From NCBI GenBank assembly GCA_043228905.1, contig JBHGNT010000020.1, positions 8,308,001 through 8,372,000 of the forward strand: a DNA stretch of 64,000 bases, given 5' to 3'. Below, piece after piece: positions 4,689 to 59,400 of the stretch. Below the pieces are notes generated by a model that did not search any database, was not told the DNA's origin, and saw only the letters and a list, made by a program, of their open reading frames with translations. The position numbers were made by a program, and so were the translations under genes. Origin of the DNA: Azolla caroliniana (Eukaryota; Plantae; Polypodiophyta). How positions within the stretch are numbered: position 1 is the stretch's first letter; each line of letters begins with the position of its first letter.

Positions 4689-4837
4689 TGTAGCATCCCT
4701 AAATCTATGTGGAAAGAGTTTGAAAATGTCCAAAAACATTTTCTTACGAAATTTCTACAAGTTAAGAAACAAACATCCTACACCCTCCTCCTTCAGACGT
4801 GTTAAGAATTGAGTCTATGGTGATTGCAAAGCAGCGG

Positions 4838-6235
4838 TGTCGTGAAGATTTTCAGCAATGGTGTGAAAATTGCATAAAACATACGAAATCGAGTATGAAT
4901 AATATAAAACAATAATAGTGAAGATACTATTTTAGATTTTTTTTAAATCTTGGTACGGGAAGATGGAGGTCTTCAAGAGCTTTCGAATGCTTTTTACTAC
5001 ATAAGAAACAAACATCTAAGTGTCAAGTTATGTGGGTATAAAGTTTTGCAAAAGAAAAAGAGAAAAATAAAACTGTGAAATATCCCACATAGATAGGAAA
5101 AATAGGCTCCAGCTATATAAGAAGATTGAGGTCCATCATATTTTGTGTTAAGAGCACATAAGAAATAGTTGGACTTGGCCACTTTTGTTTAGATGGACAT
5201 GTGTGGCTAAGTCGCCGGATGTGGCTAAGTGCCTGAACCAACTGGTGAAGAAACTCAAACCGGCCGATGACAGGACCGGAAACCGGATGGAGCCGACAAT
5301 CGGTGACCGGACGGAACCGGCAACAGTGACGGCATCCGGCGACCAGAGAACGGCATCTAGCGACGGAACTGTCGACCGGTGAACGACATCCGGCGGCATC
5401 CGGCAATAGAGTCGGTGAGCCGGTTTGGAACCGGCGATGGAGCCAATGAGCCTGTTTGGAACCGGCGACGAAGCCGGTGAGCCGGCAACATTCGGCATCA
5501 AAGTCGGCGACGACAAGCAGCGACCGACCGGTGATCGGCAAGCGACTCGGGATGCGGACCGAACCAGATCGGGATGCAGACTAGACGGGACCAAACGGAT
5601 GCAAATCGGACGGATCGGTTGATCACGGTGCATGGTGTCTTTAAGATATTTGTTCTAAAACCCTAATAGTATTTTGTGGACAAAAGAAAATGATGTAAGC
5701 AAGACTCAAACTTAACACCTCCAAGATAGGAAGCAATAGGCTTACCATTAAGCCAAACCATTTCTTTACGAATTATATTTTTATAATTGTAACTTAACAT
5801 GTAAATTCTCATACATGAGAGCTAGAATGAGTGACATGGTTATCATGCACCATATGTAATACATGAGCGCCAAATGGCAAACATGCACTTTATGCATGTC
5901 TTGTACCCCCAAATGCATGAGGGCATCTATAAAAGAGGAGAGGAAAAAGATGAGAAAAAAATGTAAAATTCTTATCAAAGAAGCTGTGTACTTTATATCA
6001 AAATTAATATTAAGAAGAAAATTCGTTATCCAATTGAGGTATTAATCTTGTTCTTCAAATCTAAAGTCAAGAATTCAATCTAAAATCAAGCGTTCTATCT
6101 TATCTCAATCTCTCGCTCTTTCAATCTATCTTAATTCCTTTCTTGCTAAAGCTTGTGCAAACTTTGAGTCCTTCTGGTCCAGAACCCCGGTGGTTCCGCC
6201 TCACGATCCGCACATAGTGACGGATCATCACGGCA
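4838..6235 (+). mobile_element. Solo LTR S1 of the tRNA-Trp/4-bp-TSD Ty3 lineage (same LTR family as G4)
   Basis: TGTCGTGAAG...TCACGGCA; GCGG duplicated at 4834-4837 and 6236-6239; homologous to reverse complement of 53735-54887. Confidence 0.9.
5696..5756 (-). ncRNA. tRNA-like element (degenerate A/B boxes) inside solo LTR S1
   Basis: rc reads TGGCTTAATGGTAAGCC...TTCCTAT...AAGTTTGAGTCTT; same position as 54181-54248 in the G4 LTR. Confidence 0.5.
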
Positions 6236-6639
6236 GCGGAAGATGAGAGACTATGTGTGTGTGTGTGTAACAGCAGAGAGAGAGAGAGACAGAAAGACAG
6301 AGAGAGAGAGAGAGAGACAGAAAGACAGAGAGAGACAGAGAGAGACAGAGACAGACAGAGAGATAGAGATAGACAGAATTGTATATTATATTAAGAAGAC
6401 GAAATACATCCAACATTTACTGAGTTACAATGAGTTGGTTTATATACCAACTAAGCTAGGGCAAGCACCTTTTCTGCTATTTACAAAACTAGCCTGGTAT
6501 GTCCATGGGCTAGTGTGAACCTATTCCTATGGGAAGTTGAGTTCGACTCTCAACACGCCCCTTCGAACACAACTTCCATGAAATCGGTTTGAAGTTCGGT
6601 GTACATATCTGCGTATCAATGCGTACTCTGCGTACTCCC

Positions 6640-7869: not shown

Positions 7870-7874
7870 GGGCG

Positions 7875-8254
7875 TGTTGAGAATCAAGCTCAACTTGGTC
7901 TAGTGTGTGAACTCACCTTGAGAGTGAAGAGACACCTCAACGGTCAAGAGTCACCATTATGTCACCACTTTGTATTCTAGCATTTAGTATGAGTCATAGA
8001 ATCATATTCTATGACACATAACTTATGAGCTTTCACATTCCCCATGCTCCATGAGCCTTGTAGTTAATGAAGAGAGAGGGTGACTACATAAAGCACCCTC
8101 CTCCCATCTTGTATAATGTTGAGTCTTTCTCCTTTGCTAATATACTTAAGCTTGCGTATACTCTGTGTCTCTCTCTCTCTCAATCTCATACACACATACA
8201 CACACAGTTCACACCTATTCCGCTTCACAAGAACCCATCTCTTGATTCTTTACA
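7875..8254 (+). repeat. C3 5' LTR
   Basis: TGTTG...TTTACA direct repeat of 46525-46896, followed by TGGTATCAGAGC. Confidence 0.95.
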
Positions 8255-8312
8255 TGGTATCAGAGCGATTTGGTAGTACGGGAACAACTCTGACTACGAA
8301 GATCGTGGCGGA

Positions 8313-20575: not shown

Positions 20576-22227
20576 ATGGGAAGCAGCTCTTGTGACCTAC
20601 ATTATATATTTTAGATGATGGTACTAACATTCAAGGTTTTTTTGTTTCTTGCAATGAATGTTGTAGTGTCAAGCAACTCCACGCTAGGGAAGGTAATGGA
20701 ACAACTAGCCCCTGTGCCTAAACCCTCAATATCTGCTGCACATTCCAAGGTTCAGGGACCATCATTACCAATAACCTATGCTTTTTATGATGAGGATGAA
20801 AGTATGAGAAGGGCCATTGGAGCAGTGGAACATATGCTTCTACAAACAAATTCCCCAAGCTCCGGTCAACATCAAGAAATAGAGCCCACTAAGAAGAGAA
20901 ATACAGTTTCTTTACAAATAGAGCCCAGTAAGAAGAGAAATGTTGCAAGAATGTTGTATGGAAACGGTAAGAAAGGCAAAGTTGAATGCAATGGTGAGTC
21001 ATATAAGTTCTCACCTGTCCGGAGCACTGTCAACCTAATCCATTGTCTAATACCATGTACTTGTGTTACTAGCTGATGACGAAATGATATTTGGTGACGG
21101 AGATACAAGTCCAAAACCTGATCGTGAAGACGAATTTATCACACTCCCAAGTACACGTCAAAAGCTAGACTTTGAAAACAATGATTTAGCTCATAACAAC
21201 CCTATTTTTGTTGCTATTATATGTAGAAAGTAACGTGCGGAAGCAAGTATGAAGACCGAATAGAAGGAAGGAAACTCAGGTTCAATGGAGAGCTTGAGCT
21301 TACACGGTATACGCGGGAGAGACACAGAGAGAGAGTGAGAGAGAAGACAAAAAATATAACAGAAGTACACAATCTCTATTCACCACTCTCTATACATATG
21401 TGTGTTCAATGAACACTTTTATACAAGTCCTAGAAGGACTGACAGAAGTACTGGCAGTACTTCAATGCTCATTTAGAGCTCCTACACTAACTCCCAAATA
21501 TATTCCTCACGGAATATCTTTCTTAACGACCTCCCGGTTTACGCACTCGGCCTAACCGATCGGTCCCAACCGATCCGGTCCTCGTCTTCTTCAGCCGATC
21601 CGGCCGATGTTGAGCTTGTCTCTCAACACTCCCCCTCAAGCTCAACTCGAGGCTCTTTGGGATCCTCAAGCTCACAACTCTGGTTCCTCTTGGCTTCACA
21701 CCTCGCTCGCGCTCCTCGACCTGTTCGACTCCGCGCGCTTCGACCCTTCTGGACGGCCTGTCTGCTCATGCGGCCCTTATCAGCTCTTCTGTTGTTGCGG
21801 TGTTGACGCGTCTCCTGCTGCCTTTTCTTCCGCTTGGGCCTCGGTTGATTCAGCGTATCTGAATCAAACATCCGAACCGACTCGGCTACCTCTGATCGGT
21901 TTTCGCTCTCGTCCGAGTTGGCTGTCTCCAACTCATCTTCGGTCTTCTCACCCTCGATGGCGTCATCTCCCCCATGCGTGGTTGGCTTCGGCTCTCTCCT
22001 TCTGTCTGCTTCCGAACTTTTCCGCGGGTCCGCCCTCGGCTTCTTCAGCCGATCCGAAGTCGAACTCGACAACCGAGTCAACAAACTCGGTGTCGCGGTC
22101 TCCGCTCCTTTCCTGCTGCCTTGCTTGGTCATTTGGGACTGTTCTCCCCCTCAAGTTTGGCACGTTGTCGTGAAGAATGTGCTTCACGATATAAAAATGA
22201 GCTTAAATGTTGTATTTAATAATATTT

Positions 22228-22422
22228 GAGAGACTTGAACCCACATCCTTATATACGATGTACAATGTACATACCACTAGGCTAGGCTATTTATTTGTAA
22301 AAGTGTGTAATAAATGTGCTTCATGATATAAGAATGAAGCTATATATTGTATTAAGTAAAATTGAGGGACTTGAACCCTCAACCTTGTATATCAAGCACA
22401 AACCATACACCACTAAGCTAGG
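22228..22422 (-). ncRNA. Two tandem tRNA-like A-box/B-box modules in G2 U3 (repeated in the 3' LTR)
   Basis: rc TAGCCTAGTGGT...GGGTTCAAGTCTC (22228-22287) and TAGCTTAGTGGT...GGGTTCAAGTCCC (22364-22422). Confidence 0.6.
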
Positions 22423-22670
22423 TTATTTGTTTTAGGGTTATATCATTATACTTATCCCAATACATGGGAGCTCAAATGAGCATGATGGCTATCATGCATC
22501 ACATGCAATGCATGTGCGCCAAATGGCGATCATGCATCAGATGTAACTCATGCATTACATGCATGACATTACCATATGCATGGAAATACTTATAAAAAGA
22601 GAGGAAAGGAAAACAAAAGGGAATCAAGGAATCAAGAGAGAGTGAAAAAATAATACAATCAATTGAAGAA

Positions 22671-22735
22671 GACTAGCTCATTGGGTGGAGAACCTCTCGT
22701 TTCGAAGTTGAGGTCGAGGGTTCAAATCAAGGGTC
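22671..22735 (+). ncRNA. tRNA-like module downstream of the G2 TATA box
   Basis: TAGCTCATTGG (A box) ... GAGGGTTCAAATC (B box) at tRNA spacing. Confidence 0.5.
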
Positions 22736-22900
22736 GGTATTGAAAAGATTCATCTTGCGATCAAGGATTGTAAAGTTGGTAAAATATTATATTTTTAATA
22801 TACATCATGTTTATATCATATACTCTTGTTTCTAGAATCATATTTTGTCTAAATCTTCTTTCTTGAATCATACATTGTCTCTATCTTTTATCTATGCTCA

Positions 22901-22944
<44 letters not shown>

Positions 22945-23088
22945 ACATTACTTGTAACTCTTCGCCGTACTACCCTTAACCATTCTATCATCACCATACA
23001 AGCCTTATTAAAAGTTAAGTTTCTTCAACTCCCCTTAACCTTAGTCCCCGCGACTTCACCGCACGAACCACAACTACCCCGACACATT

Positions 23089-23106
23089 TGGTGAACCCGA
23101 CGTGAA
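23089..23106 (+). promoter_or_regulatory. PBS complementary to tRNA-Trp 3' end (TGGTGAACCCGACGTGAA)
   Basis: Matches plant tRNA-Trp 3' end TTCACGTCGGGTTCACCA as recalled; identical at 50092-50109. Confidence 0.85.
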
Positions 23107-23123
23107 GGCGGCGACGAGGAGAA

Positions 23124-26100
23124 ATGGAGGAGCAAATGAGGCTTATGTGTACGATGATGGAACGAGTGATGCGGGAACAAGGGATGATGGCAAGCATCGA
23201 CAAAGCCGTCGACAATATTCTCGCACGAGTAGGAATCTTCGAAGGTATAAATTTAACAAGATTTCTGAAGATTTATAATGAAGAAATGCTTAAACGCGGT
23301 GTCGACGAAGCTACAAAAATTAATAGCTTTAGTCGAGTCGCTGCGATTGGGCTACAAGAGAGGATCCAAGAGCTCCAAAGGGAGAATCAGACATGGACAA
23401 CATTCGAAAGGGCATTACTCAATGAATACAACCTCAACGATATGTCAAGGATGACAAGGCAAGCTTTCATGGATTGGGTAGAGTCTAATAAACATTTAAG
23501 TGTTTTGGAAGTATTAAAAGAGTTTTCTGAAAGATTTGAGCAACTAAATGTTAGAGATAGAAATATAATAGTGCCAGATAAAGTCATATTGTTTCTACAA
23601 GCTACTAATATTAAAGACAGGAAGGACTTGGGAATGCTTTTAGAAGATCAGAATAGTCCAAGTGGACTTACCGAAGACTGGGAGGAGGTGAAAAGGACGT
23701 GAGCCCATTTCTGCAAAAGAAAGTTATGGTTTATGGAGTTGCCCGACAGAAATGATGAAGAAACGGGGAACGAGTCGGGAGAAAAGAAAGTAGAAGAATC
23801 ACTCTTACACGAATTAGTGAAAGGCATGAAAGACTTGTCGATCAAAGTGACGAAGCTAGAATCGGGACAAAGCTCGACTTCATCAAGGCAGGGAGGTGGA
23901 ATGGTCCGAAGGTGTATGTGGTGTGATAGTATCAACCACCAGAAGAAAGATTGTCAAGAGCATAGGGATGCTCTTAATCATAATAAAATCTACTATCAAG
24001 ATGGCAAGATTCACTCAACTGAGACTCGACAACCACTTCAACTCAACTTCGGGCGAGGAGGAATGAAAAGGCTAATGGAAGATGCCGAGAGAGAAACGAC
24101 TCAAGCGATACAATCCGTGGCAACCTTAGGATTGCGCGTAGAAGACTCATATGGTGGATCTGGCTTTTGGCAAGATGTGATGGATTATGCAAGAAAAGGG
24201 AAGGTTCGAGTGGATGAATTAAAAAGAGCGGGAGATGAAATACGAAACTTCACTGGATGGAATGATCCAGTAGACGCGCTATCAGCATTCGCCCAAGTGA
24301 ATGCACAAGATGTGCTAGTGGAAGAGAAGCGGAAGAGAGCTGAGGAAGCTGATCCGACAAAGAGACATGAGACACGAGAACAAAAGAGAAGGGAGATGGA
24401 AAAGGGTGCTATTGAGCCGAAGGAAGCTGATAAAGTAAAAGGAAAGACAGGCCCATCTTTCAAGCTTGCCTCAGACATAGAAACAACGATGGATATAAAA
24501 AAGGTACTAGAAACAAGAATATTAAATAGTAAGGTAGAATTTACTTTAAGAGAAGTGTTGGGTATAGCAAAGAAAGAATTTCATGAGGTTATCATAGATA
24601 TTATTAGAAGGAAGAGACAGGTGACGGAGGAAATTACGGGAGGGTGTGCAGCAACACTCCAAGATTTGTATGGTGGCACCATCAATGCTGCAAGTGTAAA
24701 AAACCAGAATGATGTTGGCGTCCATGAAGGGGATAGGAGTCACTATACAAGGGACCATTGGGCTCGAGCAACAACGGAGGCACCTGCAAAAATTGGGGAG
24801 CAGCAAATTCCATGTATTGCTTTGATCGATCATGGATCAGAGATTAACATGATGTCATCGGAATTTTACGCTCGAGGACGATGGCCGATCGACAAGAATC
24901 ATGGGTGGAAAATAAGAGCTGCCACAGAAACTATGGAGGATCTATTCGGAGCATGTCCTAGTGTGAAGGTAACAATTGGTGATGTCTCGGTGAATCAAAA
25001 TTTCTTTGTGCAGGATCGATCAACCTACCCCGTCATCCTTGGCCAGCCCTACATCACCGCAGTGAGGATGGAAACAAAGGTTATTGATGATGGTTCGGCT
25101 TTCGCGAGAATCAAGAGTCAAGATGGAAGAAAGACTGTCCAATTCTTAACCGTGAGGCCCAACCATGAAAGAAACAAAGAATGCTTGAGGGAACATCCAA
25201 TTCAAGAGATGGATGAAATGTGATAGCCCGAGCATAAAAGAAAACCCCATAAATAATAATGTAAATAAAGATATTCCTTGTACAATCTCATCTAATGGTG
25301 CTACTTTTATACTAAAAGTAAATAATAATAAAATACAAAATGCTTTCGAGTATTTTAAGTGTTCTGGATTAATAGATGATGATGAAGAAATTCAGGATAT
25401 GTTTGAAGAATTAAGTTTTGAAGATACAATAACTCATTTGGAAGCAATGGAAGAAGACAACGAAATCCAAGTTCCTGTCCATTCAATCAAGATGTATGAG
25501 GTCATTGAAGAAGTTGCTCGAAAGGATCATGAAGCACATGTACTAACAAAATACAAGACAGTGGAGAAGAAGGTTCGTCCTATTGCTGCTCCACTTCCAG
25601 GGGATAGTGAAAAGGCAATCAAAGAAGCAGCCACAGAGCCAATGATCAGAGACCCACGAAAGGTAGGACATGTGTTTACTCCGGAAACAATACAAGGGAT
25701 GAAAATAGGAGGGGGTGACTTCCTATTACCCGCTGAAGAAAAGCAGTTCAGGGAGATGTTAAAAAGGCATGGAAAGGCGTTCGCATTCCAACCGGAAGAA
25801 ATAGGGTGTGTGGATCTAGAAATTGTGGAGCCCATGGTTATATTCACTATCCCTCATATTCCATGGAACTTTAAGCCAATACCCATGCCTAGGGCTAGAA
25901 TCCCTCAACTATTAGAACTTTTGAAAGAAAAGATAAGGATGGGTATCTTGGAACCATCGAACGCTCCTTACTCGAGTCGATGGTTCACTGTGTTAAAGAA
26001 AGATGGGCGACTCCGATTTATCCAAGATATGCAACCCGTGAATAAAGTAACAATCCGAAACTCGGGAGTAGGGCCAATTGTGGATGAGTTTGTTGAGATG

Positions 26101-28650
26101 TTTGCAGGAAGAGCTATATATTCAATGGGAGACCTTTATTCCGGGTATGATCAATTTCAACTTGCTATCAAAAGTCGAGATATAACTTCTATCAAGACAC
26201 CTATAGGGTTAGTACGGATGTGCACCTTGCCGCAAGGAGCGACCAACTCAGTGGCACATATGATGAATGGAATGAACAAGGTACTTCGTGATTTTATTCC
26301 TCATATTACAATGCCTTTTCTAGATGATGTTCCAATTAAGGGATGCAAGGAGGAAGAGAAGAACGAGGAATTGGACGAAAGTGGTTGCCGTCAATTCGTT
26401 GCTGATCATATCAAGGATTGTGAGAAGGTGCTATCAAGGATGGAAGAAGTGCATTTGACCTTATCAGGGGCGAAGTCAATATTTGGGGCAAAAGAGATAT
26501 TAATAGTTGGTCATATGTGTGGCCCGTATGGGAGAAAGCCATCCCCAACCAAGGTCAATGCAATTCAAAATATGCAAGAGGAATGTACATCCATCTCAGA
26601 AGTACGAAGGTTTCTGGGGGTATGTGTTTTTTACTGTAAATGGATTCCGCATTATGCCCATTTATCTGAACCTTTATATAGACTCCTAAGAAAAGGAGAG
26701 ACATTTGAATGGAGTGAAGAGCATTCAGAGGCAATGAAGAAATTGAAGTACTACTTGGCACAAGCTCCACCATTAAAGCAACCAGACTACACCCGGCCCA
26801 TATATCTCACAGTAGACTCTAGTCCCATTGGAATTGGATGGGTGATAAGCCAACAAGATAGGGAAGAAAGGTATCCAGTCCGATTCGGGGCAAAGGTTCT
26901 TAGTGGTCGACAAAGAAAATATGCATAGGTGAAAAGAGAGCTATGGGGGATAGTAACAGCTGTAAAGACAGACAGAGATTACTTAATTGGTGCTGAAGTA
27001 ATAATAGAAATAGATTGTTTGCCTATTTTGGGTATCATAGCTAATTGTGATATTCCAGATCAAGCCATGTTAAGATGGTGTATCTATATTAGATCAATCA
27101 ACCCTGAAGTTCGACATATCTCTGGGAATAGAAATGCAGTAGCAGATATGTTATCAAGAGCAAGGTATGAGGAAGAGGAGATTCCAGACTCGGACAATGA
27201 GGACAAAGAACAAACAGTCCTTACCACAAGCATTACTCGGGAAGGAGGAATGCAGTTTCTAGAAGAGGAGTATGAAGATGAATTCAAGGAAATAGGGAAA
27301 TACCTACAAACCCCTGACAAGTACAAAGGTCGATCTGGAAAAGAGTTCGCATAGTTTCGCAAGAAAGCCCATAAGTTCTTCCTGTATGAAGGATATCTAT
27401 GGCGACATCCGAAAACCAAGACTGGAAACCCAGAAAGAGTAATAGGTTCTGAAGGGCAGAGAAAGGAGATAATCAAAGAGCTGCATGACAAAGAATGGGC
27501 TGGTCATCGAGGAGTGTGGGCCACTTTCAGTAAGATTAAAGAACGATTTTGGTGGCCTCGATACTATGAGCAAATAAAAAAGTATGTGGAAACTTGTCCC
27601 ACTTGTCAATATTATTCAAATGTAAAATTTTGTGATGAATTACACCCAACATACTCACCGGGGGTGCATTACAAGTTGATGATAGATTTGGTAACAATGC
27701 CACTTGGAGTAGGACAAAAGAGATACTTGGTTCTTGCTAGAGAAGATCTAACAAATCAAGTGGAAGGTCGTTCATTGAGAACAAAAGGGACATTAGGAGT
27801 ATGTCAATTCATCTTGGAGGACATTGTTTGTAGATATGGATGTATCGGGAAGATAGTGGCAGATAGGGGAGAACTCAATTCTGCGGAAGCTCAAGATTTT
27901 TTCGACAAAATAGGAATTCGGCTTTCTTTGACAACGGCGTACAATCCAGAAGCTAATGGAAAGGTAGAAAGGGGACATGGGCCAATAGTCAAAGCTTTGG
28001 CAAAGGCATGTAGAGGACGGGTTAGTGATTGGCCAAAAACCTTACCCTATGCACTATGGGCTGATAGGACAACTCACAGCACTGTTACTGGATATATGCC
28101 TGCAGAATTAATCACAGGACAGAAGCCAATAATGCCAATTGAAGAAAAGATAACTACATGGGTTGTGTTGCCTTGGGAATCAGAAATGAGTAGGGAAGAT
28201 TTACTTGCGGTTCGAATACGACAACTTCAATCAAGGATAGAAGACATAGAAAAAGCAGCTACTAGATTGAAAGAGGCAAGAATCAAGAATAAGGACAGAT
28301 TTGACAAGATGAAAAGAATACGACCAAGAAAGGTGCAAGAGGGAGATTGGGTATTAGTATATGATAATAGCCTAGATAATCAATACAGTACTATTCGGAA
28401 GTTTGCAAAAAGATGGTTTGGACCTTACGAAGTTAGGAAAATAACAGATAAAGCCACATATTTCCTCAATGAATTAGATGGGACAGAAATTCGTATCCCA
28501 ATTGCAGGAAAAAGGATTAAAATATTTAAAAGGAGGGAGTCATTAGAGCCTGAATTTTATGAAGAAGTAGAAGAACTAAAAGAATCGGAAGAAGTGTTGG
28601 ATGAACTCTGCACAACCAATGTGCAAGTTCAGAGGGGGTGGGTGTCGTGA
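23124..28650 (+). pseudogene. G2 gag-PR and RT-RH-INT with in-frame stops
   Basis: CMWCDSINH knuckle, IDHGSEIN, DLYSGYDQ, LPQGATNS, FLDD, NPEANGKVERGH, WFGPY. Confidence 0.9.
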
Positions 28651-29374
28651 AGAATGTGCTTCACGATATAAAAATGAGCTTAAATGTTGTATTTAATAAT
28701 ATTCGAGAGACTTGAACCCACATCCTTATATACGATGTACAATGTACATACCACTAGGCTAGGCTATTTATTTGTAAAAGTGTGTAATAAATGTGCTTCA
28801 TGATATAAAGCTATATATTGTATTAAGTAAAATTGAGGGACTTGAACCCTCAACCTTGTATATCAAGCACAAACCATACACCACTAAGCTAGGTTATTTG
28901 TTTTAGGGTTATATCCATCATTATACTTATCCCAATACATGGGAGCTCAAATGAGCATGATGGCTATCATGCATCACATGCAATGCATGTGCGCCAAATG
29001 GCGATCATGCATCAGATGTAACTCATGCATTACATGCATGACATTACCATATGCATGGAAATACTTATAAAAAGAGAGGAAAGGAAAACAAAAGGGAATC
29101 AAGGAATCAAGAGAGAGTGAAAAAATAATACAATCAATTGAAGAAGACTAGCTCATTGGGTGGAGAACCTCTCGTTTCGAAGTTGAGGTCGAGGGTTCAA
29201 ATCAAGGGTCGGTATTGAAAAGATTCATCTTGCGATCAAGGATTGTAAAGTTGGTAAAATATTATATTTTTAATATACATCATGTTATATCATATACTCT
29301 TGTTTCTAGAATCATATTTTGTCTAAATCTTCTTTCTTGAATCATACATTGTCTCTATCTTTTATCTATGCTCA

Positions 29375-29422
<48 letters not shown>

Positions 29423-29562
29423 TACTTGTAACTCTTCGCCGTACTACCCTTAACCATTCTATCATCACCATACAAGCCTTATTAAAAGTTAAGTTTCTTC
29501 AACTCCCCTTAACCTTAGTCCCCGCGACTTCGCCGCACGAACCACAACTACCCCGACAACGT

Positions 29563-33830: not shown

Positions 33831-35720
33831 TCTTCTTGTTCTTCTTCGTCAAGCTGTGTCGGCTGCAGAGAGGTTCTCAACCCTCACGCTCTGATACCAT
33901 GTAGAAAGTAACGTGCGGAAGCAAGTATGAAGACCGAATAGAAGGAAGGAAACTCAGGTTCAATGGAGAGCTTGAGCTTACACGGTATACGCGGGAGAGA
34001 CACAGAGAGAGAGTGAGAGAGAAGACAAAAAATATAACAAAAGTACACAATCTCTATTCACCACTCTCTATACATATGTGTGTTCAATGAACACTTTTAT
34101 ACAAGTCCTAGAAGGACTGACAGAAGTACTGGCAATACTTCAATGCTCATTTAGAGCTCCTACACTAACTCCCAAATATATTCCTGACGGAATATCTTTC
34201 TTAACGACCTCCCGGTTTACGCACTCGGCCTAACCGATCGGTCCCAACCGATCCGGTCTTCGGCTTCTTCAGCCGATCCGGCCGATGTTGAGCTTGTCTC
34301 TCAACATTATAGATCATAACAACACTGTTGAGCACCTAGATGTTGTGGAGAAGATGACGGAGCCCACCACTTGCAATGGGGTATCTACGGCTGTACAGTA
34401 TGACGATGTAACATTAGGTAAAAATGTGGCCCTAAACCCTATGTTCATTGTTTGCAAACTTTTGAGTATGTGAGTTGATACCAATATTCTTTGGAATCCC
34501 ATTAATTATGTTTACAAGAGCAGTCTGATTCCCATTTGCAATCAAATGAATCGGGAACTTCATGGAGCACAAGTGCAGAGTCAGATTCTGGTCAGAGTCA
34601 GAATCAAATTAACCTTTGCACGGAGGCAGACTCTGGAAGCACATCTTCCACACATGAGGATTGTGAGAAAAACGAAGCATTCATATGTGAAGAGCAGCTG
34701 GCATGTACAAACAACACTATGTCTAAAGAAGCCTATGAGGAGTGTGGAAAGAATATGGCAAGTACTGAAGAGAAGATTGAAGCCCATGAAGAGTGTGGAA
34801 AGAATATGGCAAGTACTGAAGAGAAGACTGATTGTACTGATAATGTGGCAAGTGTTGAAGAGAAGACTGATTGTACTGATAATGTGCTAGTACTGTCTAA
34901 AGATTCCCATGAGGATCATGGAAAGAACATTGCTAGTAATGAAGAGGAGCTTGATTGTACTGAGAATGTGCTAGTAGTGTCTTGTGAAGCCCATGAGGAT
35001 CGTGGAAAGAACATCGCTTTCCCTGAAGATAAGCCTGATTGTACAGAATCCCATGAGGAGTGTAGAGCGAACAACGTTACTAATAAAGGGGGGCTTGATT
35101 GTACTCAGAGCGAGCATACTAGCATCACCCAAGAGGACCAGGCAATAACGACCACCCAAGCAGGTACACGTTGTCTTAAGAATGAGGTGACATCCACCGT
35201 ACAAGAGGAGTTGACCATGACTACTGCCACGGTCCACATACAAGAGTCTAATAAGAACGAGTGTATAGGCATCAGTGATGATGATAGGGCAATAAAGATC
35301 GCTAGGAGTACAAGCATTCAGGAGATGAGTGATAATTTGTCTATCGACAACACCTTTGTGGATTTGTGTACAAGCATTGCAGTTGTAGAAAACACAGTTG
35401 CTCTCTCAAGCTTGCCACCAGTACAAGGTGCCCGCGCATCCACACCTGTCTCTGATGCCTCTGATGATGAAGTGCCACTTAGTCAGCTCATACCTAAAGG
35501 CTTTAAGATAAAGAAGAATGTAAAATCAGAAAAATCTGGCACCAACAACAAGCGCATTACAAGATCGGCCAAGTTTCCCTCTAGTGCCTGATTGTCTTTC
35601 GATTGTACTTGAACTTTAGTTGTTAGTGATGTCTGAAATTGAACTATTTGGATACCAAAATACTGTTTCAATTGCCAATGTCAAAAATCCAGTTCATGAA
35701 TTTGAAATAGTTATACCAGT

Positions 35721-49170: not shown

Positions 49171-52100
49171 TGTTAATCCTAGGGTCGGACAACAACCTAA
49201 CACAGGGTGTCCACTTAAGACACTTCACCAAAGGGTGTTACGGCAAGATGACTTACGACACAACGCTTAATTAGACCTTAATTGGTTAGTTAGCAACACA
49301 TCATTAACACGCGTAAGATATAACAATGAGTACAGAACGGTAATCAATACTGAAAGATTAAGGCAATAAGTTCTATTAATTATCCGCTGTCGATTACATT
49401 GTAACCGGGCCTTTATATAGGTCTCCGGTGCGAAGTACAAAACGGTGCCAACTGGCACCTTTTTGGGATCAGTCCGGATCTGGATCGCCATACCGATTCC
49501 GGTGTCGTGAAGAAAACCGTCCCGTAGCGCAATCGGTGCATAGCGTGCGTGAACCGGCTCTTCACACGTGCGCGCCCTTTAATGTATATAGTAGAGAATT
49601 AGGTACAAAGGTATATCCTAGGTAGTTAGATTCGGTAGGTAGGAAGTTAATGAGGGAAACGGCTCCCCTCTTGAAGCTATAAAAGAGAGGGAGACGCGGG
49701 GAGACGGGATCGCATGTTGAGGAGGACGAAGTGTTGTCAGACCGTAACCGAACGCTTCTCCTTTGTTCATTCTCCATCGCTCTTCTCTGCAGGATTTCGG
49801 GAGGCTCGTGCTGCTTCGAGGAACGCCCGTGTGCTTCCGGCAGCACCTCCATCCTATCCCCTTTCGTGCGCAGACGAGCAGGCATCGACATCTGTTCGCC
49901 GGCCTGTTCGGTTGTAACCGCTCGCGTGCTCTGTTGTTTTGTGTCATTTGTTAATATACAAACATTCGTGTCTCTCTGTCTCTGTGTCCGTTCATGTTTT
50001 CTGCGTTGACGGGCCGTGTCCCTGTGTTTCTTTGCTCATATGTTTCTCCCGCCTCGTTTCTCCACGCACGCGCGTAGTAACGCGACATATTTGGTGAACC
50101 CGACGTGAAACAGGCGGCAGAGGAGCAGAAGATGAGGGGGTCGGATCTTGCAGAGGCCATGGCTTCGGCCGTGGACCGGATAGTGAGCGCGCGCGAGGGC
50201 ACCGGCGCCCTTGACAGGGCTATTGAGGCGATCGTCGGTATGATCGGCCGGTTCAGTGGAAAGGATGCCACGAGTTATTTGGCGTCCTACCGGGCGGAGA
50301 TGTTGATGAGGGATATTCCGGAAGAGAGGCGTCTTGCCGGATTCCCTCGAGTGGCGATGCCGGGCATCCATGCGGAGGTGCTCGAGGTCCGGCCGGAGAG
50401 CCGGACCTGGGAGGAGTTCGAAGGACGGCTCCTGGAGAAATACGGGCTGGATGACGCGCTTCGACTTTCGAAGCGGGGCTTCATGGAGTGGGTGGAGTCC
50501 CCCGACAAAGGAAGAAATGCGTCGGCACTCCTCCGGGAGTTTGAGGATCGCTTTGCGCGCCTTTCGGCGCTCGATCGGACCGTTCTGGACACAAGTCGTG
50601 TCCTATTGTTTGTCAAATCGGTTGATGTACGGGATCGGGAGCAAGTGGGCTCCTTACTGGAAACTGAAGACGGGCTGACGGCCGACTGGGCCGCGGTAAA
50701 AAGAGTTTGCGGCTGTTTTGACAAACGGTGGGAGTGGGCTGATACAGGGGCGACCGGGGCGGGTCCTGTCGCAGCAAGGAAGCTTGAACCGATACCGCAG
50801 GCGTGACGGGAAGAGACCCGGGAGTGGCTCGAAACCGGTTCGGCTTCGACCGGCGTGGTCAGAGGCTCGTCTCGGGGAACAGCTTTGGAGGAGTTGACAC
50901 GGGTGGTAAAGGATCTCCAGATCGCCCAGGCTCGGAGGGAAGGTGGCGAACAGGCTCGTGACCGACGGCCTCCGGCAGGAAATAGGTGCATGTGGTACGA
51001 CGAGGTCGGCCACATCCAGAAAGACTGCGGGGACTTTGCGGAGGCTTTGAGAAGCCGGGTAGTGTACCTGTGGGAAGGTCGGGTGCACGCCAGCGATACC
51101 CGGAGGGCCCTGAACCGAAATGACGGGCGAGGGGGAATGAAAAGGCTGATGGAAGAGGCGGCGGCCCGGCACGTGGAGACCGTCCACTACTCGGCGTCGG
51201 CCGGTATTCGGGTCGGTGGCAACGAGGCCCGGAAGGAGAGCAAAGCCGGGTTCTGGCCGACGGTGCTGGAAGGCCTCGCCGGTGCCCGGCTAAAGAAAGA
51301 CGAGGCGGACCGCGCGGAGAAGCGGGTCCAGGAGGTAACCGGGTGCAGTGACCCGGTTGAAGAAAAGACGGGTTTCGTCGAAGCAGCTTGCCAGAACTAC
51401 GAGGCTCTGGTTGAAGACAAACGGGTAGGTAAAACTGGAGGGGCCGGATCCTCACAGAGATATGAAACCCGATTCAGGCCGAAATAGAACAAGGCCGATG
51501 AGACTAGTGCCCGGGATAACCACAAGAAGGGCGGATACTGGTTGGGCACGGAGATCGAAAGGACCACGGACCTACGAAAGGTCCTGGAAGAATGAATCCT
51601 TGACAACAAGGTGGAACTGTCGTTGCGGGAGGTGCTCGGAATTGCCAAGAAGGAGTTCCACAACTCCATTGTAGACTTGGTGAAGAGGAAGAGGCTGTCG
51701 ATGGAGACAGAACATGAAAGGCCGGTGGAGGTGGGGACGACGCACATGGAGGATATGGCGCTGGAAGACGAGTGGGCGGAGAGCCACTACTCGAGGCCAC
51801 ACTAGGCCCGAGCGACCACGGAAACCCCGGTGAAGATCGGAGATGTTCAGGAACCGGTGGTGGCGCTGGTGGACCACAGTTCGGAAATAAACCTGATGTC
51901 CATGGACTTCTACAAGAAGGGGAAATGGCCGATCAACACCAAGCACGGGTGGAAGATACGGGCGGCGACGCGCGCCACCAAGGAACTACACGGGGCCTGC
52001 CCAAACGTGAGAGTCAAGATCGGCGACGTCGAGATAGACCAACACTTCTTTGTGCAGGAGACGTCCTCGCACCCGGTCATACTAGGAGAACCGTACATTA

Positions 52101-52248
52101 CGACAGCGCGGATGGAGACCAAGGTGCTGGACAACGGGTCGGCTTACGCGAGGGTCAAGAGTCAGGACGGGCATCATTCGGTCCAGTTCTTGATGGTGCG
52201 ACCGAACCACGAGCGAAACCGCGAGTCCCTCGGTGGCGAGAACCGAGA

Positions 52249-52315
52249 GGATTTTTAGAGAGGGTTGTCAAGGCGTGGGGCCGCGATAGTCCAAACACTC
52301 CGGGAAAACCCCACA
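52249..52315 (+). promoter_or_regulatory. Putative -1 ribosomal frameshift signal (GGATTTT plus H-type pseudoknot)
   Basis: Heptamer at end of PR frame; RT continues in -1 frame; 6-nt spacer; stems GGGTTGTC/GATAGTCC and GTGGGG/CCCCAC. Confidence 0.65.
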
Positions 52316-53734
52316 AATGTACGATAGAGGCGAAACCGAAGAAACCTTGTACCATAAGTAGGAAGTTTTGTTTCTCCGACAATGGAGGGTGTACGATAGT
52401 TGGCGTCGTTGGCCGAGAAAAGACAAGGACATAAGAGCGACTTCGGGTGTGTGGAGTTCTCGGTCCCAGCGAGGAAATCAACAGAGCCGTGGAGGCGGTC
52501 TCCTTCAACGATACCTTGGGAATACTGCGGGAGGTGGTCGGAGAAGGCCTTAAAGAGGACCGGACGATACCGGTTTGTTCAGAAGAGATGTACGAAGTCA
52601 TCACGGACTTCAGTCGGGGGCTCGAGTCGGATCGGATGGCCCGGGTTAACACGAAGTACAAGACTGTGGACCGGAAGGTAAGGCCAGTCGCGGCACCCTT
52701 ACCGGAGGGCAGCGAGTTGCGAATCAAGGGGGTCGCGTCGGACCCCAGTTTACGAGATCCGGCCTACATAGGACACACGTTCACCGACAGAACGCTACGG
52801 GAGCTCAAAATCGGTGGGGGCGGTTTCCTATTGCCGGCGGAAGAAGACCGGTTTCGGAGAATGCTCGGAAGGCACGAGAAAGTCTTCGCATTCTCACCGG
52901 AAGAGATCGGGTGCATGGACCCGACAGTCGTGAAGTCGATGGTGATATTCACAGTACCGCATGTGCCGTGGAATCTCAAACCAATTCCGGTACCGAGAGC
53001 TCACATCCCGGAGCTGATGGAGCTATTGAGACAGAAAGTCGATATGGGCATCCTCGACCCATCGAGTGCCCCGTACTCGAACTGGTGGTTTATAGTACCG
53101 AAGAAGAACGAGACGTTGCGCTTCATTCAAGACCTGCAACCGGTCAACAGAGTGACCATTCGGAACGCAGGAATCGGACCAACGATAGAGGAGTTCGCGG
53201 AGGCCTTCGCCGGAAGGTCGATCTACTCGGTCGGGGATCTGTACTCGGGGTACGATCAGTTCCAACTAGCCGTAGAGAGCAGAGACATTACGACAATGCG
53301 GACTCCTCTCGGCCTAGTGCGGATGTGTACCCTGCCACAAGGAGGGACGAACTCGGTGGCCCACATGGTGAATGCGATGAACAAGGTGCTGAGGGATTGT
53401 ATCCCAGACATGACCATGCCATTCTTGGACGACATCCCGATCAAGGGATGTCCGGTGGAGAAAAGGGATGAAACGATCGAACCGGACAGATGCCAGAAAT
53501 TCGTGGCGACACACATTGACGACTGCAAGAGGGTGCTGCAGAGGCTAGAGGACGCGAGGCTCACCTTCTCCGGGGAGAAATCGGCCTTCGGGCAATCTGA
53601 GATCATGGTCGTCGGACATCTATGTGGACCGTATGGCTGGAAACCGTCTCTGGCTAAGGTAGAAGCCATCTCCGCAATGAAGCCCGACTGTAACTCGGTC
53701 ACGGAGGTATGGAGGTTCTTGGGAGCGTGCGCGT

Positions 53735-56407
53735 TGTCATGAAGATCCGTCACTACGCGCGGATCGTGAGGCGGAACCGCCGGGGTTCTGGACCGGAAGG
53801 ATTCAAAGTTGATACAAGCTTTGGCGAGAAAGTACTTAAGATAGATTGGGAAAGAGAGAAGTTGAGATTAAACGATTGAGAAAGATTGATTAAAGTTTTA
53901 TCTTTAGATTTAAGAAACAAGTTACACGATCAATTTGATAACAAATTTCTTCCTCTTCATTTTCATAAAAAAAAACCGTGTTTTTTCTCCTCCCCCTTCT
54001 TTTATAGATGCTCTCATGCATATGATGCATGTGAGGGTACAAGACATGCATAAATTGCATGTTTGCCATTTGGCGCTTATGTGTTACATGTGGTGCATGA
54101 TAACCATGTCACTCATTTTAGCTCTCATGTATAAGATTTACATGTAAAAGTAGAATGATAGAAATATAATTTCAACTAAATAGCATGGCTTAATGGTAAG
54201 CCAATTGACTCCTAACTTGGAGGTGCAAGGTTCGAATCCTTACTTGCCCTCCTTGTATATGTAAGTATATATATTTATATATTTATTTATCTAGTCGTCG
54301 CACACCGGTTCGCCGGATGTCGTCGGTTACCGGTGCCTCGCCGGATGCCGTCGTCGGTTGCCGTTGGATACCCGTGCCGTCGCCGGATGCCGTCGGTTAC
54401 CAGTGCCTCGCTGGTTGCCGCCGGATACCCGTGCCATCGTCTCACCGGCGCCGGATACCGCCGGTGCTGCCGCCGGATGTCGTCGTCTCACCGGCAAATA
54501 CCGGTGCCGGCGCCGGATACCGGTTTGCCGTCGGATGCCGCCGGATAACCGGCTCTTAGCCCACCTCCACTCTTAGTTCAAGTTATCTTGACTCTCTATG
54601 CTCCACACATAGACACAAAGATAATATGATGAGATTCGTATTTGTCGTGCCTATGTGGGATATCTCACAATTTTCTCTTTTCCTTTCACAAACTTTATAC
54701 CCTCATATCTTGATATTTTGTTGTCCGTTTCTTGTGTAATAAAGTGCATTCGAAACCTCCATCATTTTGTACTTAGATATTAAATTTATTTAAAATGTTA
54801 TCTTCACAATTATTGTACTATGTGATTCATACTCGATTTCGTACGTTTTATGAGATTTTCACACTATTGCCGAAAATCTTCACGACATCCACCCCCACCA
54901 AACCGCACGTCCTCCGGTACGTGCCAAGAAGAGAAGAAGGGAGATTTCAGCTACAATGATCAATTAGATTCCTCCATGTCTTCATTTTCGTCCGGCCTAT
55001 TATGTTCATCGTCGAGGTAATCGAGGTCAGAATCCTTGTCTTGTCTTTTCTTGAAAATCTTTACTCTTTTTCCCGCAATGGGTACGGCCAACCTTGATCC
55101 GTCTAGTTCCGCAAGGTGGTATGTGGCATTATCGTTGGCACTTGTCACCACATACGGCCCGAACCATCTTCTTGCGAACTTCCTTGTTGTACTGTGTTGA
55201 TTGTCAAGGGTGCTGTCGTAAACCAAAACCCAATCCCCTTCTTCAATCTTCTTGGGACGAAGCCGATGCGTGTTGTCGAACCGAACTTTGTTCTTTACTC
55301 GGGCTGCCTTCATCATCTTTCGCGCTTTTTCTAAATCTTCAGGTCTTCTTTCAAGTTGCCTTATCCGCGCCGCTAATAACTCTTCTTGGCTCATCTCGTT
55401 CTCCCACGGTATCGCTACCCATGAGGCGATCGTCCTTTCGATGGGCATAATCGGCTTTTGTCCATACATAAGCTCCGTCGGTATATACCCTACCACCGAG
55501 CTATGTGTCGTTCTATTGGCCCACAAGGCATAGGGTAATAGTCGTGGCCAATTCCCAACTCGACCGTTGCATGCCCGTACGATGGCTTTAACGATAGGTT
55601 CATGCCCTTGCTCGATCTTCCCATTTGCTTCCGGATTGTAGGCAATCGTGAGGGAGAGCTTCACTCCTAGTCTTTCGAAGAGCTCTGTCGCTTCGTGCGC
55701 GTCCAAATCCCCTCGGTCGGCCACTATCTTCCCTACACATCCATATCGGCAAACAACATCTTCAAGTAGAAATTTGCAAACAGCTAAAGTCGTCTTATTT
55801 GTCAAGGCTCGTCCTTCCACTTGATTTGTCAAGTCTTCCCTTGGCAGCGCTAAGTACTTCATTTGTCCCACTCCCATTGGCATCGAGACCAGATCCACCA
55901 TCCATTACCGGTGCCTCGCCGGATACCGATGCCGCCGCCGTCGCCGTCGCCGGATTGCTGTCGGATGCCGGTGTCTCACTGGCGCCAGATGTCGTCAGAT
56001 CACCAGCTCCATCGCCGGTCCGGTTTTGGTTGGCCAAAACCCTTTACGAGTAGCTAGCCCACCTCCACTCTTAGTTCAAGTTATCTTGAACTCTCTATGC
56101 TCCACACATAGACACAAAGATAATATCTTTTGCTCCACCTTATATATGATGAGAGCCGTATTTGTCGTGCCTATGTGGGATATCTCACAAATTTCTCTTT
56201 TCCTTTCACAAACTTTATACCCTCATATCTTGACATTTAGTTGTCCGTTTCTCGTGTAATAAAGTGCATTCGAAACCTCCATCATTTTGTACTTAGATAT
56301 TAAATTTATTTAAAATGTTATCTTCACAATTATTGTACTATGTGATTCATACTCGATTTCGTATGTTTTATGGGATTTTCACACTATTGCCGAAAATCTT
56401 CACGACA
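53735..56407 (-). mobile_element. Ty3/gypsy G4, internally deleted, 4-bp TSD GCGT
   Basis: Full 3' LTR 53735-54887, PPT 54888-54900, integrase fragment 54960-55901 fused to first ~500 bp of the 5' LTR (~55905-56407); GCGT at 53731-53734 and 56408-56411. Confidence 0.92.
54181..54248 (+). ncRNA. tRNA-like element (Arg-CCT-like) in G4 LTR, antisense to the LTR
   Basis: D-arm GGCT-TAATGGTA-AGCC, loop CTCCTAA, T-arm AAGG-TTCGAAT-CCTT; acceptor stem not convincing. Confidence 0.65.
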
Positions 56408-59400
56408 GCGTTCTACCACATATGGATCCTGCATTACGCCCACGTTGCCAAGCCGCTATACGGGTTGCTGAAAAAGGGGCGAAAATTTGAGTGGCGAGAC
56501 GAGCATACGAAGTCGGTGCGAAAGATGGAGGCTCTTGCTGCAGCTCCGGCACTCCGGAAGGCTGTCTACGAGAAAGGCACTCCCATCTACATAACGGTAG
56601 ATACAAGTCCGACCGGGATCGGATGGGTCGTCAACCAAGAAGATGAGGACGGCATTCGATTCCCAATCCGGTTCGGCGCAAAGGTCCTCAGCGAGCGACA
56701 GCGAGGATACGTGCAGGTTAAACGCGAACTCTGGGGTATCGTTTCAGCGGTGAAGGCCGATAAAGACTATCTAATCGGGACAGAAGTGATTATCGAGACG
56801 GACTGCCTACCGATTCTCGGCATGGTTTCCGGATGCGCAACCCCGGACCTGGCAATGCTCAGGTGGATAGCGTACATCAAGTCCCTGTGCCCGGAAATAC
56901 GACACATTTCCGGGAAAGACAATGCCATGGCCGACATGCTTTCGAGGGCGCGATTCGACAACGAGGGCGGCATGGTTTCGGAGGACGAGGAAGTCGACGT
57001 GGACTTCTTCGAGGCGGCTTACGTAACAACCGAGGGGGGGGAGCACTCCGGCGCTTAACGATTTCAACAAGAGCAAGGAGGATAGGGAGTGGCTGCAGAT
57101 TGGGGGATTCTTAAGGACCATGACGCCAGACGCGTCATGGACAAAGAACGAGGCCAACCGGATCCGGAAGAAAGCGTACCGATTCTTTCTCCGGGACGGA
57201 TACTTGTGCAAGCACCCGAAGAAGAGAAATGACATCCCGCTCCGAGTAGTGGCGATAAAGGAGGAACAGGAGGAGTTGTTGGAGGCCTACCACGACAGCC
57301 CCTGGGCTAGACACCGTGGGACGTGGGCCACGTTCGAGAAACTAAAGGGGAAGTACTGGTGGCCGGGATTGTACCGGGACGTGCATCGGTTCATGACAAC
57401 TTGTGAGAGCTGTCAGATACACTCCATAGTCCGACATCGGGACAAGCTTCACCGTACATACCCTCCGGCCATCCACTTCAAATGGATGGTAGATTTGGTG
57501 ACGATGCCGATGGGCGTAGGGCAGATGCGATATCTGGTGCTGGCCCGGGAGGACCTGACGAACCAGATGGAAGGCCGAGCCCTGTAGAACCAAACGACCG
57601 CGGCCGTGTGTCGGTTCCTGATCGAGGACGTGATATGCCGGTACGGGTGCGTCGGGAAGATCGTGGCTGACCGCGGGGAGTTGGACGCCGAAGAGACCAA
57701 GGAGCTGTTCGACCGGTTAGGCGTCAAGCTCTCGCTCACCACAGCGTACAATCCGGAGGCGAACGGGAAGGTGGAGCGCGGACACGGATCGATCGTCAAA
57801 GCGCTAGTCCGGGCATGCGGAGGCCAGGTCGGGAACTAGCCACGACTGTTACCTTATGCCTTGTGGGCGGACTGGATAACGCACAGTTCGGTAACCGGGT
57901 TCATGCCGTCAGAGCTCATGTTCGGACAAAAGCCGATCATGCCGATGGAACGGACGATCTCCTCTTGGGCGACAGTGGACTGGAGAGACGAGATGAGCCG
58001 GGAAGAACTGCTAGCGGCGCGTATACGGCAGCTCGAGCAGAGGCCAGAGGATGTGGAACGAGCGGCGGAGAGACTTCGGACGGCGAGGATGAGGAACAAA
58101 GCCCGGTTCGACCGAACGCACCGGCTCCGACCAAAGAAAATCAAGGAAGGCGACTAGGTGCTAGTCTACGACAGCAACCTCGATAACCAGCACCGGGCAA
58201 CACGGAAGTTTGAAAAGCGGTGGTTCGGGCCTTACGTGGTAACGAGCGCCAACGACAACGGGACGTATCACCTGGCGGAACTCGACGGTACAAGGATGGC
58301 GATACCGGTAGCAGGGAAGCGGATCAAAGCGTTCAAGAAGCGCCACGACGGTGAACCGGATCTGAGAGGCCTGGACAGTGACGACGAACAGTCTGAAACA
58401 GAGGACGAACCGGTGGACGACGAACCGGAACCCGGACCGGTTTTCTCCAACCAGAACCCAATTTTGGCGCACACCGGTGGATGCGTGGTTAGGTGGGGGC
58501 GGATGTCGTGAAGAAAACCGTCCCTTAGCGCAATCAGTGCATAGCACGCGTGAACCGGCTCTTCACACGTGCGCGCCCTTTAATGTATATAGTAGAGAAT
58601 TAGGTACAAAGGTATATCCTAGGTAGTTAGATTCAGTAGGTAGGAAGTTAATGAGGGAAACGGCTCCCCTCTTGAAGCTATAAAAGAGAGGGAGACGCGG
58701 GGAGACAGGATCGCGCGTTGAGGAGGACGAAGTGCTATCAGACCGTAACCGAACGTTTCTCCTCTGTTCATTCTCCATCGCTCTTCTCTGCAGGATTTCG
58801 AGAGGCTCGCGCTGCTTCGAGGAACGCCCGTGTGCTTCCGGCAACACCTCCATCCTATCCCCTTTCGTGCGCAGACGAGCAGGCATCGGCATCTGTTCGC
58901 CGGCCTGTTCGGTTGTAACCGCTCGCGTGCTCTGTTGTTTTGTGTCATTTGTTAATATACAAACATTCGTGTCTCTCTGTCTCTGTGTCCATTCGTGTTT
59001 TCTGCGTTGACGGGCCGTGTCCCTGTGTTTCTTTGCTCATACGTTACCGGTCGTCTCTCTCTTTCTCTTTCCCCTCCTATCACCTGCTCTTCGGTTCAAG
59101 ACCTCGGTGGTCCCGCCTCGTTTCTCCACGCACGCACGTAGTAACGCGACACCGGTCTGTCCGTCCACATCTTCTCATATATTAATATATATTAAGACTA
59201 CTAATTACAACAGTTCCCGAATAAACTATTCCTTTCACACTCTGGTTTGGACCTCCTTAAAACACCGAGACATTTGAAATAGGTAATATGTCGCATTTTA
59301 AGAACTATCCGTCAAAAAAAGACACAAAATAGGTCGATTGACAAAAAGGGGTGCCGCATGCATAAAGGATTTTCAAAAATGACCCAAAAATATATTGATT

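What the first reader, a model, noticed from the sequence alone, without database searches (positions are those of the whole stretch)
4834..59155. A Ty3 lineage that inserts at CpG: four of four 4-bp TSDs are N-CG-N
Seen: S1 (GCGG), G2 (ACGT), G3 (CCGG) and G4 (GCGT) are independent insertions from three LTR families sharing TGTCGTGAAG starts; each duplicates 4 bp with CG in the centre (consensus VCGK), whereas G1 and C4 make ordinary 5-bp TSDs (CAAGG, TTATA). Known: plant LTR elements typically make 5-bp TSDs with little sequence preference; sequence-specific 4-bp targets are familiar from insect errantiviruses. Inference: an integrase with no visible chromodomain that reads CG (perhaps methyl-CG), steering insertions into other TEs; all four landed in older elements. 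The lineage may correspond to a described bryophyte/lycophyte non-chromovirus clade; I cannot check that here.
Basis: partly seen in the sequence, partly recalled or inferred. Interest (0 to 1): 0.85.

Follow-up and report, generated by a model that had tools for sequence, protein, structure and literature searches.

The report
Phygy retrotransposons insert at CG sites
Four jumping-gene copies in this plant DNA each duplicated a four-base site with CG in its middle, but this preference is already published for the moss Phygy group, to which they very likely belong, and whether their integrase needs the CG to be methylated is untested.

Summary
S1, G2, G3 and G4 each have an exact 4-bp target duplication with central CG. 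Other copies agree: 22 of 27 LTR ends in public metagenome contigs are flanked by NCGN (22 of 23 once four artefacts are dropped; background CG 0.052), and so are majority flank letters in runs of four organisms. It is not new. Neumann et al. 2019 (PMC6317226) report Phygy: 186 moss elements, 4-bp TSD, NCGN, tRNA-Trp primer site, no chromodomain. The window's elements match these traits and group in trees with Physcomitrium, Riccia and Adiantum proteins. I could not read REXdb's own sequences, and the primer identity is recalled. The CG is most likely read by the integrase at the kinked centre of the target. Nothing here tests methyl-CG. Four of four landing in older elements is uninformative, since most of the window is LTR-element DNA. 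Additions I did not find in print: the preference holds in many families of a host other than Physcomitrium, and the integrase has a conserved one-residue-shorter target-binding segment. No earlier scan note on this was found.

The parts
4838..6235 (+). S1, solo LTR (1398 bp), TGTCG...CGGCA, same family as G4; sits in a minus-strand copia LTR (about 4799-6555)
4834..4837 (+). S1 TSD GCGG (second copy 6236-6239)
22166..29558 (+). G2, full-length Phygy-type element (7393 bp); LTRs 22166-23084 and 28643-29558, 6 mismatches in 912 aligned bases; inside copia C4
22162..22165 (+). G2 TSD ACGT (second copy 29559-29562)
23089..23106 (+). G2 primer-binding site, 4 nt after the LTR; tRNA-Trp complement (identity recalled, not tool-confirmed)
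   Evidence: searches found no tRNA gene to confirm
23106..25223 (+). G2 gag-protease frame (DUF4100), one in-frame stop at 23700-23702
25189..28650 (+). G2 RT-RNase H-integrase frame, stops at 26926-26928 and 27352-27354; no chromodomain; one RNase H region only in the Pfam scan
27862..27876 (+). integrase D-R-G-E-L segment after the second catalytic Asp; one residue shorter than PFV and Ty3 at the helix alpha2 position
28363..28413 (+). integrase C-terminal-domain loop before the GPY motif, with conserved Q343, R348, K349, R353 (numbering of the ORF starting at 27355); candidate CG reader (inferred)
49503..59151 (+). G3, full-length Phygy-type element (6972 bp without G4); LTRs 49503-50087 and 58504-59151; PBS at 50092; sits in LTR-like sequence
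49499..49502 (+). G3 TSD CCGG (second copy 59152-59155)
53735..56407 (-). G4, internally deleted element (about 350 bp of 5' LTR, integrase C-half, 1153-bp 3' LTR), inserted in the RT of G3
53731..53734 (+). G4 TSD GCGT (second copy 56408-56411); single copy at the empty site in L010 and L051
9877..45281 (+). G1, Tat/Athila-like Ty3 element, control: 5-bp TSD CAAGG, ordinary D-Q-G-S-H-F integrase spacing
21222..34306 (-). C4, Ty1/copia element, control: 5-bp TSD TTATA

Best explanation
These four insertions share a 4-bp CG-centred target duplication and very likely belong to the Phygy clade of Ty3/gypsy retrotransposons, whose integrase likely picks the CG itself, probably without needing methylation. 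Shown: exact 4-bp NCGN duplications, a CG that pre-exists at the empty site, the same flank motif in other copies, no chromodomain. Inferred from the PFV paradigm: a 4-bp stagger puts one dinucleotide step at the centre of the sharply kinked target, where flexible pyrimidine-purine steps are favoured. Because CG alone is used, and not TA, CA or TG, a base-specific contact is also likely, most plausibly from the conserved Q/R/K loop of the C-terminal domain, made symmetrically by two subunits on the self-complementary CG. The shortened alpha2 segment may alter target bending. Any bias toward other elements would follow from CG density: 0.05-0.09 in most LTR-element internal regions here against 0.013-0.016 in AT-rich stretches.
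For: TSDs. Empty site. 22 of 27 raw, 22 of 23 cleaned half-sites NCGN against a background of 0.052; p 3.6e-24 on the raw count; the flanks are all different. Loose ends before the LTR start in runs X6, X9, X12, X14: majority letters end in CG plus one base in 4 of 4 runs (9, 15, 9, 8 contigs). The group whose last two bases match the reference GG (10, 9, 9, 4 contigs) has C before them in 3 of 4 runs. Phygy traits in REXdb. Trees. Model matches PFV and Ty3 integrases. PFV prefers a central flexible YR step and uses Arg329 of the CTD loop (PMC4005685). Bacterially expressed ZAM integrase binds its CGCGCg target on oligonucleotides (PMC2527525). Control L044: same PBS, other integrase type, 5-bp TSD without CG.
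Against: No Phygy RT/RH/INT from REXdb could be compared (files too large); the Physcomitrium link rests on gag-protease proteins named only 'predicted protein'. G2 (7393 bp) and G3 (6972 bp) are shorter than the REXdb range of 7656-9968. PFV Ala188 contacts bases outside the duplication (positions -3 and 6), so the alpha2 gap cannot by itself explain the central CG; the matching position here shows only a weak skew (A14 C2 G6 T9 of 31). The short motif also occurs in four distant unnamed rows outside the plant clade whose targets are unknown. The CTD loop was only partly confident in the model (pLDDT 56 for residues 341-350), and no DNA complex was modelled. In the ZAM paper, mutating the CGCGCG site did not abolish nicking. 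Methylation dependence is not excluded by any search.
Confidence: 0.68

Rival explanations
1. The integrase reads methylated CG (5mCpG) directly through its core or C-terminal domain, and so targets silenced DNA without a chromodomain.
For: The host methylates CG in these elements. The one exception among 23 half-sites is ATGG (L040), as expected from decay of a methyl-CG. A liverwort genome paper lists Phygy among families enriched at centromeres (PMC12885004), and Phygy nested in Tcn1 is reported for the moss (PMC6911290).
Against: No methyl-CpG-binding, SRA, CXXC or chromo Pfam hit in 12 window frames of G2, G3 and G4 or in 14 homologs. Decay after insertion explains ATGG equally well. ZAM integrase binds a CG-repeat target on oligonucleotides, and Drosophila has next to no CpG methylation (recalled). 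Flank CG frequency (0.052) is close to the window mean (0.049).
Confidence: 0.14
2. Shape alone: the integrase needs only a kinkable central step, and a host tether or nucleosome context makes CG the usual one.
For: PFV selects a flexible central YR step by distortion. No clear base preference outside the four bases.
Against: TA, CA and TG are also YR steps and together far commoner than CG in the window (0.0585, 0.068, 0.0645 against 0.0486), yet 22 of 23 half-sites have CG.
Confidence: 0.13
3. The NCGN pattern is chance, selection by the first reader, or part of the element's own ends.
For: Only four insertions lie in the window, in CG-rich surroundings (0.04-0.09). The LTR ends themselves contain CG.
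Against: Independent flanks; single GCGT at the empty site; 186 of 186 moss Phygy elements have a 4-bp TSD annotated NCGN.
Confidence: 0.01

Closest known systems
Phygy (REXdb non-chromovirus Ty3/gypsy clade of Physcomitrella patens; Neumann et al. 2019, PMC6317226)
   Same: 4-bp TSD, NCGN target, tRNA-Trp PBS (mine recalled), no chromodomain, no extra domain, coding region filling the interior; gag-protease groups with 8 P. patens proteins.
   Different: The host is not P. patens by inference: the moss proteins are only 58-63% identical in protease. Elements are somewhat shorter (7.0-7.4 kb against 7.7-10.0 kb). The paper called the clade species-specific; relatives here come from Riccia, Adiantum and Ceratopteris, and a liverwort paper also uses the label.
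Drosophila ZAM-subgroup errantiviruses (PMC2527525, PMC5408687)
   Same: Sequence-specific palindromic target rich in CG (CGCG / CGCGCg), attributed to the integrase.
   Different: Animal elements related to retroviruses; a longer CG-repeat target rather than a single central CG; no close kinship was tested here.
Prototype foamy virus integrase (PMC4005685)
   Same: Best structural match; 4-bp stagger; central flexible YR step.
   Different: PFV takes any YR weakly; this lineage takes CG almost always and lacks one residue at the Ala188/Ala189 position.
TatI and Selgy (REXdb)
   Same: 4-bp TSDs; TatI also has a tRNA-Trp PBS.
   Different: TatI carries an extra aRH domain and no NCGN note; Selgy uses tRNA-Ala and averages 5 kb. 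Neither was compared by sequence.

Membership tests
Phygy | 4-bp TSD | tested here: met
   4 of 4 window elements; the 23 outside half-sites test the motif, not the length
Phygy | NCGN target motif | tested here: met
   4 of 4 in the window; 22 of 27 raw, 22 of 23 cleaned
Phygy | PBS complementary to tRNA-Trp (81% in REXdb) | tested here: inconclusive
   G2 and G3 share one PBS; that it matches plant tRNA-Trp is recalled; searches gave no tRNA sequence to confirm it
Phygy | No chromodomain, no extra domain or extra ORF; polyprotein fills the interior | tested here: met
   Pfam scans; fold; C-terminal tails of 50 aa or less in 50 of 55 integrases; G2 coding 23106-28650 between LTRs
Phygy | Clade membership by RT, RH and INT phylogeny with REXdb references | not testable with these tools
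   REXdb FASTA and element table too large to read. Proxy: protease tree joins G2, G3 and 8 P. patens proteins in a 54-row clade, 98/98; RT tree joins G2, G3, Riccia and Adiantum in a 36-row clade, 100/99, without moss rows
Phygy | Length 7656-9968 bp (range in moss; called of little classification weight by the authors) | tested here: not met
   G2 7393 bp, G3 6972 bp without G4; slightly below the range; authors' remark
Tat (TatI) | Additional aRH domain | tested here: not met
   Only the RT-linked RNase H region hits in G2 and in full-length homologs; G2 RT is 23% identical to the window's Tat-like G1
Chromovirus | Chromodomain at the integrase C-terminus | tested here: not met

The most novel reading that the evidence does not exclude
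Phygy integrases read methylated CG directly, through a remodelled alpha2 segment and a conserved C-terminal-domain loop. That would make them retroelement integrases that target silenced DNA by sensing 5mC in the cut site itself, a chromodomain-free route kept across mosses, liverworts and ferns.
Probability: 0.12. Interest if true: 0.8.

Novelty: new member of a known kind. Interest (0 to 1): 0.22.

Why it matters
The target rule is published, so the finding is mainly a confirmation in another host and in many more families. What remains useful is that Phygy is the one plant LTR lineage REXdb found to be sequence-specific, and I found no paper on how it chooses CG. The conserved short alpha2 segment and the C-terminal loop give named residues for a direct assay, and moss accessions allow a methylation test at empty sites. 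If methyl-CG were required, it would be a new way for a retrotransposon to aim at silent chromatin.

Tried and rejected
No whole genome is held for this window, so no genome-wide TSD logo was made. Viral contigs: the PBS pattern gave 0 matches and the integrase alignment 0 relatives among 48 candidates. Genome contigs gave 2 loci of 82 candidates, one a 3.3-kb contig (L119, 55%) in a bacterial bin, likely carried-over plant DNA; not analysed further. The first read-laying on the whole G2 LTR showed no junction rows among those printed (776 hidden). My first PPT pattern matched nothing and was rewritten. Dropped before counts: L008 (same contig as L009); 17 PPT-preceded starts and 96 PBS-followed ends (internal junctions); for the cleaned count also L055, L117, L118 (reverse-strand PBS ends) and L007 (cut PBS). 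The ESM Atlas gave only generic gypsy integrase clusters. Cluster look-up of 10 unnamed homologs gave no organism names, so the host stays unidentified; a non-seed land plant is inferred. The protease tree put G2/G3 outside the named land-plant rows (39 rows, 99/99), but the RT tree did not; I treat this as a rooting effect of long outgroup branches. No tRNA gene confirming the primer was found. Earlier scan notes: none on this lineage; five unrelated notes from this genome. Literature: 'NCGN' with 'retrotransposon' gave 3 papers, only PMC6317226 relevant; 'Phygy' gave 18 listings; a five-term search on methylated CpG targets gave 6 listings, none on this by title and abstract start. PMC7466625 passages say nothing on target motif or methylation. 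The library lacks most subscription papers.

Full report
Observation. A self-comparison of the window shows nested LTR elements. Four insertions start with TGTCGTGAAG: solo LTR S1 (4838-6235), G2 (22166-29558), G3 (49503-59151) and, on the minus strand, the internally deleted G4 (53735-56407). Each is flanked by an exact 4-bp duplication that does not extend to 5 bp: GCGG, ACGT, CCGG and GCGT. G1 and C4 have 5-bp TSDs, CAAGG and TTATA. At the window's CG frequency of 0.0486, four central CGs have a post hoc chance of 5.6e-6, or 6.6e-5 at the highest local frequency. G4 interrupts the RT of G3. Two uninterrupted relatives, L010 (90% alike) and L051, carry GCGT once at that place, so the duplication is real and the CG belongs to the target.

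Other copies. No whole genome is held. I scanned metagenome contigs for the PBS shared by G2 and G3: 119 stretches of an estimated 230, 34 of 64 parts scanned, 118 loci. In 117 loci (L008 repeats L009) I found LTR termini by likeness to PPT- or PBS-anchored termini, without using the flank. Of 39 starts, 17 followed a PPT; of 101 ends, 96 preceded a PBS. Of the other 27 termini, 22 have NCGN against a flank CG frequency of 0.052 (p 3.6e-24). Four of the five misses are artefacts (three reverse-strand PBS ends, one cut PBS), which leaves 22 of 23; the last is ATGG, compatible with CG-to-TG decay. The 23 flanks are all different, and positions outside the four bases show no clear preference. These are half-sites, so they test the motif and not the TSD length. 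Twenty-one come from one series of assemblies, probably this host or close kin; the origin of L090 and L114 was not looked up.

Laying public contigs on the PPT-LTR junction gave a second test (181, 225, 165 and 140 contigs laid for runs X6, X9, X12, X14 of organisms A-D). Contigs leaving the reference at the LTR start (9, 15, 9, 8) have unrelated flanks (agreement 0.42-0.48) whose majority letters end in CG plus one base in 4 of 4 runs. Contigs that match two more reference Gs (10, 9, 9, 4) have majority C before them in 3 of 4 runs and T in X14. No group matching one G only was among the rows shown; 74 rows were hidden. As a control, L044 has the same PBS, an integrase closer to G1 (42%) than to G2 (32%), and a 5-bp TSD without CG.

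What it is. G2 encodes a DUF4100 gag-protease frame and an RT-RNase H-integrase frame, both with stops; no chromodomain hit in G2, G3, G4 or 14 homologs. Named homologs come from Riccia, Adiantum, Ceratopteris and Physcomitrium patens, and more distantly from the fungus Smittium. In a protease tree of 59 rows, G2 and G3 share a 54-row clade (98/98) with 8 moss, 9 Adiantum and 11 Riccia proteins, apart from G1 and the far rows. In an RT tree of 50 rows they share a 36-row clade (100/99) with Riccia and Adiantum; no moss RT was available. Both trees use picked subsets of the hits and long outgroup branches, so the inner root is unsure. The host is unidentified; a non-seed land plant is inferred.

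What is known. In PMC6317226 (passages, sections 9 and 13, Additional file 5, and a term search of 5 supplements) Phygy is a non-chromovirus clade from P. patens: 186 elements, TSD 4 bp (100%) (NCGN), 7656-9968 bp, PBS tRNA-Trp 81%, no extra domain. The text says Phygy is the exception among plant LTR elements in having an insertion preference for NCGN. The element table and protein FASTA were too large to read, so membership rests on matching traits and the moss gag-protease proteins. G2 and G3 are a little shorter than the moss range. The tRNA-Trp identity of the PBS is recalled; searches did not confirm it. PMC6911290 (passages and section 8) reports 4-bp TSDs for Phygy and nesting of Phygy in Tcn1. 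PMC12885004 (two passages) uses the label for a liverwort, with centromeric enrichment. PMC7466625 (passages) added nothing on targets.

How it likely works. The predicted integrase (mean pLDDT 80.4) matches PFV and Ty3 integrases best. PMC4005685 (passages) states that PFV kinks its target at a central flexible YR step, with Arg329 of the C-terminal-domain loop and Ala188 of helix alpha2 contacting bases. With a 4-bp stagger the central step here is CG. TA, CA and TG are each commoner than CG in the window, so flexibility alone does not explain the choice, and a base-specific contact is inferred. The loop before the GPY motif holds Q343 (60 of 61 rows), R348 (46 of 60), K349 (58 of 59) and R353 (51 of 58); these are candidates only, and the model is weak there. 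Pairwise and profile alignments put a one-residue gap after D-R-G against PFV and Ty3. Of 250 homologs aligned across this site, 243 have the short form and 7 distant ones the usual spacing, as does G1; the rows were chosen by likeness to G2 and are not independent. Against a simple link: Ala188 reads bases outside the duplication, and four distant rows outside the plant clade also have the short form. ZAM integrase made in bacteria binds its CGCGCg target on oligonucleotides, though nicking survived mutation of that site (PMC2527525, abstract and passages); PMC5408687 (passages) lists CGCG among errantivirus targets.

Methylation and steering. In six LTR pairs, transitions per cytosine are 0.097 at CG, 0.061 at CHG and 0.011 at CHH (24, 8 and 10 changes), the mark of a host that methylates these elements. 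This makes methyl-CG available but does not show it is needed. S1 sits in a copia LTR, G2 in C4, G4 in G3 and G3 in LTR-like sequence, but about 59 of the 64 kb lie in or between nested LTR elements, so nesting carries no information. CG density differs several-fold between regions (0.013 to 0.092), enough for a plain CG rule to favour CG-rich elements.

Novelty and verdict. The feature is real and already described for Phygy; this is a new member of a known kind. My searches showed no paper on the mechanism, on methylation dependence or on the short alpha2 segment; most were seen as listings only, and the library lacks most subscription journals. No earlier scan note covers this lineage. Interest 0.22. 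The methyl-CG reading stays open at about 0.12 and would deserve 0.8.

Noticed in passing
window 7875-46896: Copia element C (LTRs 5 mismatches in 372) has no matching TSD; its left LTR is preceded by the same 6 bases that end its PPT at the right LTR. Possibly imprecise PPT removal or a recombinant of two copies.
   Followed up: partly
window 23106-28650; L009, L010, L049, L051, L065: Gag-protease and RT-RH-INT lie in different frames. By tblastn start positions, pol is in the -1 frame in 5 of 5 relatives but +1 in G2. REXdb gives the organisation of Phygy as not determined.
   Followed up: partly
window 22166-22191 and 28643-28668: The G2 LTR begins with a short inverted repeat (10-base arms with one mismatch, 6-base loop), and its first 120 bases recur at 78% further on.
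   Followed up: no
window 59541-62312 (minus strand): Two frames separated by one stop; the 722-aa one has DUF7869 (E 3e-50), next to a 41/51/92-bp repeat array at about 62940-63920.
   Followed up: no
window 18925-20580 and 38020-39320: Tandem arrays of 52-bp and 146-bp units inside G1's long non-coding part.
   Followed up: no
L004, L011, L034, L044, L099: A second, unrelated LTR group ending ...TGTAAACA directly on the same PBS; L044 has a 5-bp TSD and a Tat/Athila-like integrase remnant.
   Followed up: partly
L119 (contig CADCWO010000123.1): A 3.3-kb contig in a cyanobacterial genome bin encodes a 55% identical integrase of this lineage; likely carried-over plant DNA.
   Followed up: no
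window 36762-37688 (minus strand): Weak Pfam hit to a cysteine-stabilised alpha/beta domain, E 0.0077 and below the family cut-off; treated as chance.
   Followed up: no
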